Below are positions 50,501 through 53,500 of a stretch of 64,000 bases of DNA, piece by piece. Source of the stretch: Escherichia coli (lineage in GTDB: Bacteria; Pseudomonadota; Gammaproteobacteria; Enterobacterales; Enterobacteriaceae); NCBI RefSeq assembly GCF_013315695.1, contig NZ_CP054353.1. One strand, given 5' to 3'. The position numbers are program-made. Each line of letters opens with the position of its first letter. The first letter of the stretch is position 1.

Positions 50501-53500
50501 CAGGAGCAGGCGAACCCGGATATGGGCGATAGCGCGATTACCGAAACCTTTGGTATCGGTGGTGCGGCAATGATCGCAGCCCCTGGCGTAACACGCTTTG
50601 TCGGTGCGGGTGGCATGGAAGCGGCCAGAGCGGTATCTGAAGAGATGGCGGAAATCTTCCTTGAACGCAATATGCAGTTGCAGATCCCCGGCTGGGATTT
50701 CCAGGGCGCGTGCCTGGGGCTGGACATTCGTCGCGTGGTAGAAACCGGCATTACGCCACTCATCAATACCGGTATCGCCCATAAAGAGGCGGGGATCGGG
50801 CAGATTGGCGCAGGCACCGTGCGGGCACCGCTGGCGTGCTTTGAACAGGCGCTGGAAGCACTGGCTGCAAGCATGGGTATTGCTTGAGGAACACGCAATG
50901 ACAATCATCCATCCTCTGCTTGCCAGCCGTAGCGCACCGAATTATCGCCAGTCCTGGCGGTTAGCGGGCGTGTGGCGGCGGGCGATTAACCTGATGACGG
51001 AAAGCGGCGAACTGTTAACGCTGCATCGTCAGGGGAGTGGTTTCGGCCCCGGAGGATGGGTGCTTCGCCGCGCGCAATTCGATGCGTTATGCGGTGGATT
51101 ATGCGGCAATGAACGACCACAGGTTGTGGCTCAAGGCATTCGCCTCGGACGTTTCACGGTTAAACAGCCACAGCGTTATTGTTTGCTGCGTATTACGCCG
51201 CCTGCGCATCCTCAACCGCTTGCAGCTGCATGGATGCAACGCGCGGAGGAAACCGGGCTTTTCGGGCCACTGGCGATGGCGGCAAGCGATCCGCTGCCTG
51301 CTGAGTTACGCCAGTTTCGTCACTGTTTTCAGGCCGCGCTCAATGGCGTTAAGACCGACTGGCGGCACTGGCTGGGTAAAGGCCCAGGATTAACGCCAAG
51401 TCATGATGACACGCTGAGCGGAATGCTGCTGGCGGCCTGGTATTATGGCGCTTTAGATGCGCGCTCCGGTCGCCCGTTTTTTGCCTGTTCCGACAATCTT
51501 CAACTCGTTACCACAGCGGTGAGCGTCAGTTATTTACGTTATGCCGCGCAAGGATATTTCGCCTCGCCACTCCTGCACTTTGTTCATGCTCTGAGTTGCC
51601 CGAAACGTACCGCTGTTGCGATTGATTCGCTGCTGGTGCTGGGGCATACGTCAGGGGCAGATACGCTGCTGGGGTTCTGGCTTGGCCAACAATTATTACA
51701 AGGAAAACCATGAAAACACTGGTTGTGGCTCTTGGGGGCAACGCCTTACTCCAGCGCGGCGAAGCGCTGACGGCAGAAAATCAATATCGCAATATTGCCA
51801 GTGCTGTACCCGCGTTGACGCGCCTGGCCCGTTCTTATCGGCTGGCGATTGTTCACGGCAACGGGCCACAGGTGGGGCTGTTGGCGTTACAGAATCTGGC
51901 GTGGAAAGAGGTCGAACCGTATCCGCTGGATGTACTGGTGGCGGAAAGTCAGGGGATGATTGGCTATATGCTGGCGCAGAGCTTGAGCGCACAGCCGCAG
52001 ATGCCGCCTGTGACGACGGTGCTGACGCGCATTGAAGTTTCGCCTGATGATCCGGCGTTTTTGCAGCCAGAGAAATTTATCGGTCCGGTTTATCAGCCAG
52101 AAGAACAAGAGGCACTGGAAGCGGCTTACGGCTGGCAGATGAAACGTGATGGTAAATACTTGCGCCGGGTGGTGGCATCTCCGCAACCGCGTAAAATTCT
52201 CGACAGCGAAGCCATTGAGTTGTTGCTCAAAGAGGGGCATGTGGTGATTTGCAGTGGCGGCGGCGGTGTGCCTGTGACGAAAGACGGGGCAGGGAGTGAA
52301 GCAGTGATTGATAAAGATCTCGCCGCTGCGTTGCTCGCCGAGCAGATTAATGCCGATGGACTGGTGATCCTCACCGATGCTGATGCGGTATATGAAAACT
52401 GGGGAACGCCGCAGCAACGTGCCATTCGCCGTGCCACACCGGATGAGTTAGCGCCATTTGCCAAAGCCGATGGTTCGATGGGGCCGAAGGTAACGGCGGT
52501 GAGTGGCTATGTCAGAAGCCGTGGTAAACCCGCGTGGATTGGGGCGTTATCGCGGATTGAAGAGACGCTGGCGGGCGAAGCGGGGACTTGTATTTCGCTG
52601 TAGTGATGGGCACCAGGCAATTGGCACATCTAGCCTGATGCGATGCTGGCGCGTCTTATCAGGTCTACAGGCGGTGTCGGAACGGTAGGCCGGATAAGGC
52701 GTTCACGCCGCATCCGGCAATCGGCACACCATGCCTGATGCGATGCTGGCGCATCTTATCAGGCCTACAGTCGGTGTTGGAACGGTAGGCCTGATAAGGC
52801 GTTCACGCCGCATGCGGCAAGAAAATGAGCATCAATTAACTGAACTTGCTCTGCGCCCACATCACGCCGCTGGCATACTCTGGCGGCAGCAGCGGGATTA
52901 AGGCTTCCAGCGTCGCGGTCAGACGCGATGTGTCGCTGTCGGTCAAATTCAGATGCCCCACTTTACGCCCCGGACGGACTTCTTTGTCGTACCAGTGCAG
53001 ATGCACCAGCGGCAGTTTCAGCCAGTCATAATTCACATCGCTACCAATCAGGTTGATCATCACCGACGGACTATTCACTACTGGTTGCGGTAACGGCAGA
53101 TCGGTAATCGCCCGCAGATGCAGCTCAAACTGGCTGATGCTGGCACCGTTTTGTGTCCAGTGACCGCTGTTATGCACACGCGGAGCCAGTTCGTTGATCA
53201 GCAGACCTTGCGGGGTGACAAAACACTCCATCGCCATCACGCCCACATAGCCCAGCTCCTGCATAATCGCCGACAGCATCTCTTCGGCCTGCGCCTGCTG
53301 CTGCGCGTTGGCCTGCGGGAAAGCGACGCTGGTGCGCAAAATACCGTCCTGATGCAGGTTATGCGTCAGCGGATAAAACACGGTGCTACCATCAAAGCCG
53401 CGCGCGCCAACCAGCGACACTTCACCAGAGAAGTTTATGCCCTGCTCGACAATACATTCGCCGTAGCATTCAGCCGGTAACTGTTCGGTTTCATCGGCGC

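What the first reader, a model, noticed from the sequence alone, without database searches (positions are those of the whole stretch)
52604..52835. Tandemly duplicated ~105-bp REP/BIME unit between ybcF and purK
Seen: two near-identical units, each holding a pair of REP palindromes, beginning at about 52632 and 52738 with a handful of substitutions. Inference: a local duplication of a bacterial interspersed mosaic element, a possible site for copy-number variation and for IHF or gyrase binding.
Basis: seen in the sequence. Interest (0 to 1): 0.2.

Follow-up and report, generated by a model that had tools for sequence, protein, structure and literature searches.

The report
Two-copy BIME-2 REP array, ybcF–purK
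The spacer between the convergent E. coli genes ybcF and purK holds two tandem 100-bp copies of an ordinary BIME-2 repeat unit (one z2 REP plus one y REP), and different E. coli lineages carry 1, 2, 3, 5 or 6 copies of it, which is a well-known behaviour of this repeat family.

Summary
The repeat covers 52610-52818 and the second unit starts at 52733, not 52738. The window is E. coli, and the 232-nt spacer lies between the convergent genes ybcF and purK. Each unit is a z2 REP (36 nt), a 16-nt tail-to-tail linker, an inverted y REP (34 nt) and a 14-nt head-to-head linker. That is the BIME-2 architecture. It has no long L linker and no IHF consensus, so the IHF suggestion fails; gyrase binding is plausible from the family only. 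REP325, the source of naRNA4, has the same 100-bp period, and the y-z2 junction passes Rfam's naRNA4 threshold (83 bits). Across 5,426 complete E. coli genomes the spacer is highly polymorphic (93 to 633 nt), including an in-register series of 1, 2, 3, 5 and 6 units. The window's two units differ at 6 of 86 core positions, and each is identical to units in other strains. So this is an allele of an old array, stable within clones, not a fresh private duplication. It is a known kind of element and of low interest.

The parts
51710..52603 (+). ybcF (carbamate kinase). Its stop codon TAG is at 52601-52603, and its transcript would read into the array.
   Evidence: ORF list; NCBIfam NF006926, 617 bits; RefSeq annotation of the identical strain MS 21-1.
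52610..52632 (+). Partial unit: a degenerate y-REP head remnant (GCACCAGGCAA) followed by a head-to-head-type linker (TTGGCACATCTA). It is homologous to 52710-52732.
   Evidence: It lies in register in the 100-nt repeat. In the O157-type and Escherichia sp. E1V33 alleles the remnant reads GCATCCGGCAA, an intact y head.
52633..52668 (+). z2 REP number 1 (GCCTGATGCGATGCTGGCGCGTCTTATCAGGTCTAC), head to tail.
   Evidence: Sequence. Typed as z2 because it has the same long loop as the Z2 of REP325, and differs from the short z1 of the window's BIME-1.
52669..52684 (+). Tail-to-tail linker 1 (AGGCGGTGTCGGAACG, 16 nt).
   Evidence: The motif is found only in this array within the window.
52685..52718 (-). 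y REP number 1, inverted (GTAGGCCGGATAAGGCGTTCACGCCGCATCCGGC on the + strand). It matches the y consensus with 0 mismatches.
52719..52732 (+). Head-to-head short linker (AATCGGCACACCAT, 14 nt).
   Evidence: Its reverse complement resembles the REP325 head-to-head linker (P about 0.0015 against shuffles).
52733..52768 (+). z2 REP number 2 (GCCTGATGCGATGCTGGCGCATCTTATCAGGCCTAC).
52769..52784 (+). Tail-to-tail linker 2 (AGTCGGTGTTGGAACG), 14 of 16 identical to linker 1.
52785..52818 (-). y REP number 2, degenerate (GTAGGCCTGATAAGGCGTTCACGCCGCATGCGGC). Two substitutions produce two adjacent stem mismatches. Its tail arm now pairs with the z2 number 2 tail arm as a 17-nt inverted repeat (52755-52771 with 52782-52798).
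   Evidence: (I1). An identical unit is the terminal unit in strain DS566-1.
52688..52765 (+). The y - short linker - z2 module spanning the unit 1/unit 2 junction. It matches Rfam RF02564 (naRNA4) above the gathering score. No such module passes the threshold in the window's partial leading unit, which is the only part one-unit alleles retain (31 bits at the leading copy).
   Evidence: 83.1 bits on the + strand and 59.5 on the - strand, against a gathering score of 59.5.
52836..53903 (-). purK. Its stop codon is at 52836-52838 on the - strand, and its transcript would read into the array 17 nt after the stop.
   Evidence: NCBIfam NF004678, 675 bits; annotation.

Best explanation
This is a two-unit allele of a BIME-2 array (bacterial interspersed mosaic element, family 2) in the 3' spacer shared by the convergent genes ybcF and purK of E. 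coli. SHOWN: each 100-bp unit is a z2 REP, a 16-nt tail-to-tail linker, an inverted y REP and a 14-nt head-to-head linker. There is no IHF/L motif and no intrinsic terminator. The array exists in E. coli as an in-register series of 1, 2, 3, 5 and 6 units, alongside rearranged alleles. Unit variants are shared and shuffled between strains. Copy number is constant within clonal groups and differs between lineages. INFERRED, origin: whole units are gained and lost by homology-driven replication slippage or unequal exchange between the 100-bp repeats. The first duplication was probably seeded by the 11-nt y-head direct repeat (GCAYCMGGCAA) that brackets a single unit. INFERRED, function, from published work on the family: the spacer is transcribed as the 3' untranslated end of purEK mRNA on the - strand, and of ybcF mRNA on the + strand. 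There the REP hairpins would block 3'-to-5' exonucleases and attenuate read-through into the opposing gene. As DNA, the y REPs would offer preferred gyrase binding and cleavage sites, as at other BIME-2s. More units would mean more hairpins and more sites. No dosage effect has been demonstrated.
For: Repeat geometry. REP typing: the long-loop Z matches the Z2 of REP325 (Rfam alignment; Qian 2015, PMC4550694; REP325 sequence). The window's own BIME-1 at 34222-34420 shows that the short z1 goes with the long IHF-bearing linker. Family definitions come from Ton-Hoang 2012, PMC3333891: BIME-2 is z2+y with a short linker, in tandem copies, with copy number varying between strains. REP325 has the same 100-bp period. 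There is no IHF consensus in the spacer and there are 0 terminator-like sites. Allele series and exact register. Unit A is identical in four strains, and unit B is identical to the terminal unit of DS566-1. Population samples give 14 length classes between 93 and 533 nt. The closest-flank sample shows blocks of genomes with one length each. The A-type core is present in 1,128 of 5,426 genomes at 1-5 places, and the one single-place genome checked was at this locus. Both RNA strands fold far better than shuffles, at -106.3 kcal/mol (z -4.66) and -105.2 kcal/mol (z -5.84). Gyrase cleavage sites are over-represented in a subset of BIME-2s, with y cut more often than z2 (Sutormin 2018, PMC6379681). 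REP stabilisation and attenuation of mRNA is summarised in PMC12306157.
Against: No functional evidence exists for this locus. No transcript, gyrase, HU or half-life data could be retrieved: the held supplements of PMC6379681 contain no purK or ybcF entry, and no paper in the library holds purK, ybcF and REP together. Only a subset of BIME-2s is cleaved by gyrase in vivo. About 4% of genomes carry a REP-free spacer, and many carry a single unit, so the second unit is dispensable. The terminal y REP is degenerate, and in the MFE fold the second unit prefers an alternative z2-tail/y-tail hairpin. The slippage/unequal-exchange route is not distinguished here from TnpA_REP-catalysed amplification.
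Confidence: 0.85

Rival explanations
1. The array was built, and is resized, by the REP-associated tyrosine transposase TnpA_REP (RAYT). The enzyme would cleave at iREP and linker C|T sites and rejoin the strands to add or remove BIME units. Passive slippage or unequal recombination would not be the cause.
For: TnpA_REP cleaves z2, z1 and y iREPs and also linker sites, and in vitro it produces recombination products carrying extra REPs. The authors propose this as the source of BIME-2 copy-number and linker variation (PMC3333891). Every unit here carries the GTAG/CTAC and TGCC|TGAT sites.
Against: All changes seen in the A-type family are whole 100-bp units in perfect register, with mosaic unit variants. 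Homologous misalignment explains this without an enzyme. tnpA_REP is missing from some B2 and most B1 strains, with only minor differences in REP/BIME numbers, and the expanded alleles occur in Nissle- and ST131-type (B2) backgrounds. The tnpA_REP status of those particular genomes was not tested here.
Confidence: 0.3
2. The y-linker-z2 module at 52688-52765 is a functional paralogue of naRNA4, an HU-binding nucleoid-associated non-coding RNA. The duplication would matter because it creates such a module, which is absent from one-unit alleles.
For: Rfam RF02564 scores 83.1 bits over the full model length, against a gathering score of 59.5. The architecture has two hairpins and a 100-bp period, as in REP325. 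Qian 2015 reports that most REPs are transcribed and that DNA condensation needs an RNA with two hairpins.
Against: The Rfam model is in effect a generic y-z2 pair. It also hits the unrelated BIME at 34289-34366 (70 bits) and hits this locus on the opposite strand. The tail-to-tail linker is unrelated to that of REP325 (P = 0.2), and the head-to-head linker is inverted relative to y and z2. There are no expression or HU-binding data for this locus. Many strains lack the module altogether.
Confidence: 0.1
3. It is a BIME-1/RIP-type element that acts as an IHF binding site.
Against: There is no WATCAANNNNTTR match in 52604-52835. The linkers are 14 and 16 nt rather than the roughly 35-nt L linker. 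The Z REPs are z2, not z1, and the units are tandem, whereas BIME-1 occurs as a single copy.
Confidence: 0.02
4. It is a fresh duplication private to this strain, or an assembly artefact.
For: Only two copies are present, at high similarity (89-90%).
Against: The two units differ at 6 of 86 core positions, and each is identical to units in other strains. The same 232-nt spacer is found in at least 5 genomes with identical flanks, and 232-233 nt spacers occur in 42 of the 60 closest genomes.
Confidence: 0.02
5. It is a classical bidirectional intrinsic terminator, or it encodes small proteins.
For: It sits between convergent genes, forms strong hairpins, and contains mechanical ORFs at 52503-52688 and 52731-52901.
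Against: There are no hairpin-plus-T-run sites on either strand. The 100-bp period is not a multiple of 3, so no repeated peptide is maintained. PGAP annotates no gene here in any of the strains inspected.
Confidence: 0.03

Closest known systems
BIME-2 family of E. coli REP clusters (Gilson/Bachellier nomenclature, as summarised by Ton-Hoang et al. 2012, PMC3333891)
   Same: Alternating z2 and y REPs in inverse orientation, short linkers, tandem units, intergenic position at gene 3' ends, and copy number that differs between strains.
   Different: Nothing categorical. The linker sequences are locus-specific, and the terminal y REP is degenerate. I could not assign the linkers to the named S/s/l/r motifs because the consensus figure is not in the text held.
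REP325 / naRNA1-6 (yjdM-yjdN spacer of K-12; Qian et al. 2015, PMC4550694; Rfam RF02564)
   Same: The same 100-bp period, the same y and z2 REPs, and a related 13-14-nt head-to-head linker. It passes the Rfam gathering score.
   Different: It has two units rather than about six and lies at a different locus. The tail-to-tail linker is unrelated, and the head-to-head linker is in the opposite orientation relative to y and z2. No evidence of HU binding or a nucleoid role exists for it.
BIME-1 / RIP elements (IHF-binding), for example the one in this window at 34222-34300
   Same: It is built from REPs and includes a y REP.
   Different: BIME-1 uses the short z1 REP and a long L linker of about 35 nt with an IHF site (AATCAATATATTG at 34261-34273), and it occurs as a single copy. 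The element studied has none of these features.
REPtron / TnpA_REP (RAYT) system
   Same: The REPs here carry the GTAG tetranucleotide and the stem mismatch that TnpA_REP recognises, and the CC|T cleavage motifs.
   Different: No transposase gene lies at or near the locus. Any RAYT action would be in trans and was not tested.
Intergenic minisatellite VNTRs used for typing (for example mycobacterial MIRU loci); analogy from my own knowledge
   Same: Whole-unit copy-number alleles that are stable within clones and variable between lineages, with unit-variant mosaics.
   Different: The unit here is a pair of REP palindromes belonging to a genome-wide dispersed family.

Membership tests
BIME-2 | Composed of z2 and y REPs in alternating, inverse orientation | tested here: met
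   The order is z2> y< z2> y<. z2 was typed by identity of length and loop with the Z2 of REP325 and by contrast with the short z1 of the window's BIME-1.
BIME-2 | Short linkers between REP and iREP (not the long L linker) | tested here: met
   The head-to-head linker is 14 nt and the tail-to-tail linker 16 nt. The BIME-1 linker in the same window is about 35 nt.
BIME-2 | [quoted passage not shown] | tested here: met
   There are 2.0 copies here, and 1, 3, 5 and 6 copies in other strains in exact 100-bp register.
BIME-2 | Linkers and flanks correspond to the named S, s, l or r motifs | tested here: inconclusive
   The consensus motifs are not available in the text held. The head-to-head linker resembles that of REP325 in reverse complement (P about 0.0015), and the tail-to-tail linker does not (P = 0.2). 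The literature states that BIME-2 linkers vary in length and sequence.
BIME-2 | Bound and cleaved by DNA gyrase in vivo | not testable with these tools
   Only a subset of BIME-2s shows cleavage, and no entry for this locus is in the held supplements.
BIME-1 / RIP | z1 + y separated by a long L linker carrying an IHF site, as a single copy | tested here: not met
   There is no IHF consensus in 52604-52835, the Z REPs are z2, the linkers are short and the units are tandem.
naRNA4 (Rfam RF02564) | Scores at or above the family's gathering threshold with both hairpins | tested here: met
   83.1 bits against a gathering score of 59.5, covering model positions 1-77.
naRNA4 (Rfam RF02564) | Discrete transcript that binds HU and condenses the nucleoid | not testable with these tools
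   No expression or RIP data for this locus could be retrieved.
Intrinsic (Rho-independent) terminator | GC-rich hairpin followed by a T-run | tested here: not met
   0 sites on either strand in 52300-53100.
CRISPR array | Identical short direct repeats separated by unique spacers | tested here: not met
   The whole 100-bp unit repeats, linkers included. The only CRISPR-DR hit scores 20 bits against a gathering score of 50, with E = 0.53.

The most novel reading that the evidence does not exclude
Copy number of the 100-bp unit could act as a lineage-specific dial. Going from one unit to two or more creates complete y-linker-z2 (naRNA4-like) modules and adds y-REP gyrase sites between two convergent operons. 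The 1-6-unit alleles would then differ measurably in purEK mRNA stability or read-through, in local supercoiling, or in HU/naRNA-mediated chromosome contacts. The long arrays in B2 lineages such as ST131 would then be maintained by selection rather than drift.
Probability: 0.07. Interest if true: 0.4.

Novelty: already known. Interest (0 to 1): 0.12.

Why it matters
It matters little beyond annotation. It is a clean, well-resolved example of a BIME-2 array behaving as a minisatellite: exact 100-bp register, 1-6 units, and shared and shuffled unit variants, stable within clones but different between lineages. It could serve as a minor typing marker, or as a natural allelic series for testing whether REP dosage affects mRNA 3'-end protection, gyrase recruitment or naRNA-like RNA production. 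It also gives a practical caution. Rfam's naRNA4 model fires on generic y-z2 pairs, so such hits should not be read as dedicated sRNA genes.

Tried and rejected
(1) My recalled z1/z2 labels were swapped. The script labels the long-loop REP 'Z1'. I corrected it to z2 using REP325 and the window's own BIME-1.

(2) The fuzzy-regex annotator skipped several REPs in the long arrays. I replaced it with exact-anchor unit cutting.

(3) The RefSeq K-12 record shows no REP features at ybcF-purK or at REP325, so I could not cite an official REP number.

(4) A literature search for purK + ybcF + REP found 0 papers. The supplements of PMC6379681 have no purK or ybcF entry. No supplements are held for PMC3333891 or PMC4550694.

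(5) The single genome-contig scan, using a degenerate purK 3'-end pattern, was too strict and returned one locus only. That gives one outgroup data point rather than a cross-species series.

(6) I considered IHF binding, an intrinsic terminator, CRISPR and small ORFs, and rejected all four.

(7) I did not determine the tnpA_REP status of the strains carrying expanded arrays, because the tools list at most 60 records per search and cannot be aimed at chosen genomes.
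Full report
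**Observation.** The window is E. coli. An 801-nt stretch around the finding is 100% identical to strain MS 21-1 (NZ_CP146670) and matches 5,425 of 5,426 complete genomes. The finding lies in the 232-nt spacer (52604-52835) between two convergent genes. These are ybcF (carbamate kinase, 51710-52603, + strand) and purK (52836-53903, - strand). The repeat finder reports two gap-free 100-nt copies, 52610-52709 and 52710-52809, at 89% identity. TRF reports 52616-52820, period 100, 2.0 copies, 90% matches and no indels. So the repeat is real, but the period is 100 rather than about 105. The second unit's z2 REP starts at 52733, not 52738.

**Anatomy.** Read directly from the sequence, the spacer has these parts in order:

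- A 29-nt lead, whose last 23 nt (52610-52632) are a degenerate y-REP head plus linker.
- z2 REP 52633-52668.
- A 16-nt tail-to-tail linker, 52669-52684.
- An inverted y REP, 52685-52718.
- A 14-nt head-to-head linker, 52719-52732.
- z2 REP 52733-52768.
- A 16-nt linker, 52769-52784.
- An inverted, degenerate y REP, 52785-52818.
- A 17-nt tail running up to the purK stop codon.

Each unit is therefore 36+16+34+14 = 100 nt.

The terminal y REP carries two substitutions that produce two adjacent stem mismatches. They also make its tail arm complementary to the neighbouring z2 tail arm, giving a 17-nt inverted repeat (52755-52771 with 52782-52798). That hairpin dominates the predicted folds of unit 2.

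The window holds 10 REPs in three BIMEs, at 25.7, 34.2 and 52.6 kb, against 0.32 matches expected by chance. The unit's tail-to-tail linker motif occurs only in this array.

**Which BIME family.** Ton-Hoang et al. 2012 (PMC3333891) define the families as follows. BIME-1 is z1+y, a single copy, with a long L linker that often carries an IHF site. BIME-2 is z2+y, in multiple tandem copies, with a short linker and copy number varying between strains. My recalled z1/z2 labels were the wrong way round, and two tests corrected them.

- First, the window's other BIME at 34222-34300 joins a short Z REP (GCCTGATGCGCTACGCTTATCAGGCCTAC) to a y REP. The linker is about 35 nt and contains the IHF consensus AATCAATATATTG. 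That is BIME-1, so the short Z is z1.
- Second, REP325 of K-12, which Qian et al. 2015 describe as six Y-l-Z2 repeats (PMC4550694), has the same long-loop Z as the finding.

The element is therefore BIME-2. There is no IHF consensus anywhere in 52604-52835 and no hairpin-plus-T-run terminator on either strand.

**Relation to REP325 and naRNA4.**

- REP325 has exactly the same 100-bp period, with 5.8 copies.
- The y-linker-z2 module at 52688-52765 spans the junction of units 1 and 2. It scores 83.1 bits against Rfam RF02564 (naRNA4), whose gathering score is 59.5. On the opposite strand it scores 59.5 bits.
- The model is not locus-specific. It also hits the unrelated BIME at 34289-34366 with 70 bits.
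- The head-to-head linker resembles that of REP325 only in reverse complement (P about 0.0015 against shuffles). The tail-to-tail linkers are unrelated (P = 0.2).

So the Rfam hit says "generic y-z2 pair", not "naRNA4 gene".

**Population comparison.** I used flank-only queries with the spacer removed, so the span of each joined hit gives the spacer length.

- A rank-spread sample of 59 genomes gave 14 length classes: 194 nt (18 genomes, the K-12 type), 136 (14), 138 (5), 232 (4), 533 (4), 126 (3), 532, 204 and 152 (2 each), and 93, 119, 132, 264 and 332 (1 each).
- The 60 genomes with the most similar flanks gave 232 (23), 233 (19), 532 (10), 119 (4), 152 (3) and 136 (1).
- Five genomes with 100%-identical flanks all have 232 nt, and runs of genomes with equal flank identity share one length. 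The array is therefore stable within clones and differs between lineages.

**Fetched alleles.**

- Nissle 1917 has 1 unit (132 nt), the window 2 (232), DS566-1 3 (332), GPEC1354 and an ST131 strain 5 (532/533), and SCU-115 6 (633). All are in exact 100-bp register.
- A second allele family, which includes K-12 (194 nt), is built on a 70-bp unit with a truncated y REP. It has variants of 264 nt (one extra 70-bp unit) and 93 nt.
- The O157 and B1-type alleles (138 and 136 nt) have one unit with diverged linkers.
- All of these align as homologues (alignment A1).

**Is it a fresh local duplication?** No. Written as unit strings, the window is A-B, Nissle is C, DS566-1 is D-E-B, GPEC1354 is F-G-F-A-A, ST131 is A-H-I-A-J and SCU-115 is A-H-K-D-A-J.

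The window's two units differ at 6 of 86 core positions. Unit A is identical to six units in three other strains, and unit B is identical to the terminal unit of DS566-1. The A-type 46-nt core occurs in 1,128 of 5,426 genomes at 1-5 intergenic places each, and the one single-place genome I checked was at ybcF-purK.

The only non-E. coli representative recovered, Escherichia sp. E1V33, has the one-unit O157-type allele at the same site. [quoted passage not shown]

**Mechanism.** The following are shown: the architecture, the family assignment, whole-unit copy-number alleles, mosaic unit variants and clonal stability.

Origin is inferred. Units are gained and lost by misaligned replication or unequal exchange between 100-bp repeats. 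A single unit is already bracketed by an 11-nt direct repeat, namely the y-head remnant at 52610-52620 and the y head at the unit's end. That repeat could have seeded the first duplication.

The alternative is TnpA_REP-catalysed cleavage and rejoining, which generates extra REPs in vitro. It is not excluded. However, tnpA_REP is absent from some B2 and most B1 strains with little effect on BIME numbers, and all the changes seen here are perfectly in register.

Function is inferred from the family only. REP hairpins in 3' untranslated regions protect mRNA from 3' exonucleases and attenuate transcription (summarised in PMC12306157). Both strands of the spacer fold far better than shuffled controls, at -106.3 kcal/mol (z -4.66) and -105.2 kcal/mol (z -5.84). 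Gyrase cleavage sites are over-represented in a subset of BIME-2s, preferentially in y REPs (PMC6379681).

The REPs start 29 nt after the ybcF stop codon and 17 nt after the purK stop codon. From my own knowledge of Liang, Rudd and Deutscher 2015, that is outside the roughly 15-nt range reported for REP-induced ribosome stalling. I could not retrieve any locus-specific data on transcription, gyrase or HU.

**Comparison with the known, and verdict.** Every testable defining feature of BIME-2 is met, the defining features of BIME-1/IHF are not, and the element passes Rfam's naRNA4 threshold only in a generic sense. Variation in BIME-2 copy number between strains is established knowledge. This is therefore an ordinary, already known kind of element. 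Interest is low.

Noticed in passing
L005 605-756 (E. coli APEC E16002, ybcF-purK spacer); compare window 52604-52835: About 4% of E. coli genomes (238 with full-length matches) have a 152-nt REP-free spacer at this site. Its core (CCCCTCGCCCCTGTGGGGAGAGGGTTAGGGTGAGGGGG and flanks) belongs to a different dispersed intergenic repeat family, with a median of 15 places per genome. From memory it may be boxC, but I did not verify that. The same 3' spacer therefore hosts two unrelated small-repeat families in different lineages.
   Followed up: partly
L016 1568-2916 (E. coli SK0189), next to purK at 3002-4069: An IS3-family IS1397 copy sits about 85 bp from the purK stop codon, and gsk lies directly beyond it. 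ybcF and the upstream genes are therefore missing in this strain. From my own knowledge IS1397 targets BIMEs, so this looks like an insertion into this BIME followed by an adjacent deletion.
   Followed up: partly
window 34222-34420: A composite BIME with this order: z1, then a linker of about 35 nt with IHF consensus AATCAATATATTG (34261-34273), then y, which is BIME-1. It continues with a 14-nt linker, a z2-like REP, a 16-nt linker and a y-like REP. Rfam hits are ES036/CssrF (34243-34285, - strand, 40.3 bits) and naRNA4 (34289-34366, 70 bits). It looks like an 'atypical' BIME-1/BIME-2 chimera.
   Followed up: partly
window 25716-25759: A third BIME in the window: two REP tail motifs in inverse orientation 30 nt apart. 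I did not characterise it.
   Followed up: no
L001 1834-2027 (K-12), L014 401-664 (FLI21), L013 401-493 (STEC409): The K-12-type allele family uses a 70-bp unit (z2 plus a y REP truncated to its head, CGCATCCGGC). It shows its own copy-number series of 93, 194 and 264 nt. In FLI21 ybcF is also annotated as a pseudogene with an internal stop.
   Followed up: partly
L011 401-519 (E. coli AST217): A 119-nt allele in which the z2 REP is interrupted after its head arm. It is followed by a different palindrome (TTATCCGACCTG...ACAGGTCGGATAA) fused to a y-type loop and head. It is a hybrid REP of unclear origin, seen in 4 of the 60 closest-flank genomes.
   Followed up: no
window 52688-52765 and 34289-34366: Rfam RF02564 (naRNA4) passes its gathering threshold on generic y-z2 REP pairs at two unrelated loci, and on both strands of one of them. 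Automated annotation with this model will over-call naRNA4 genes.
   Followed up: yes
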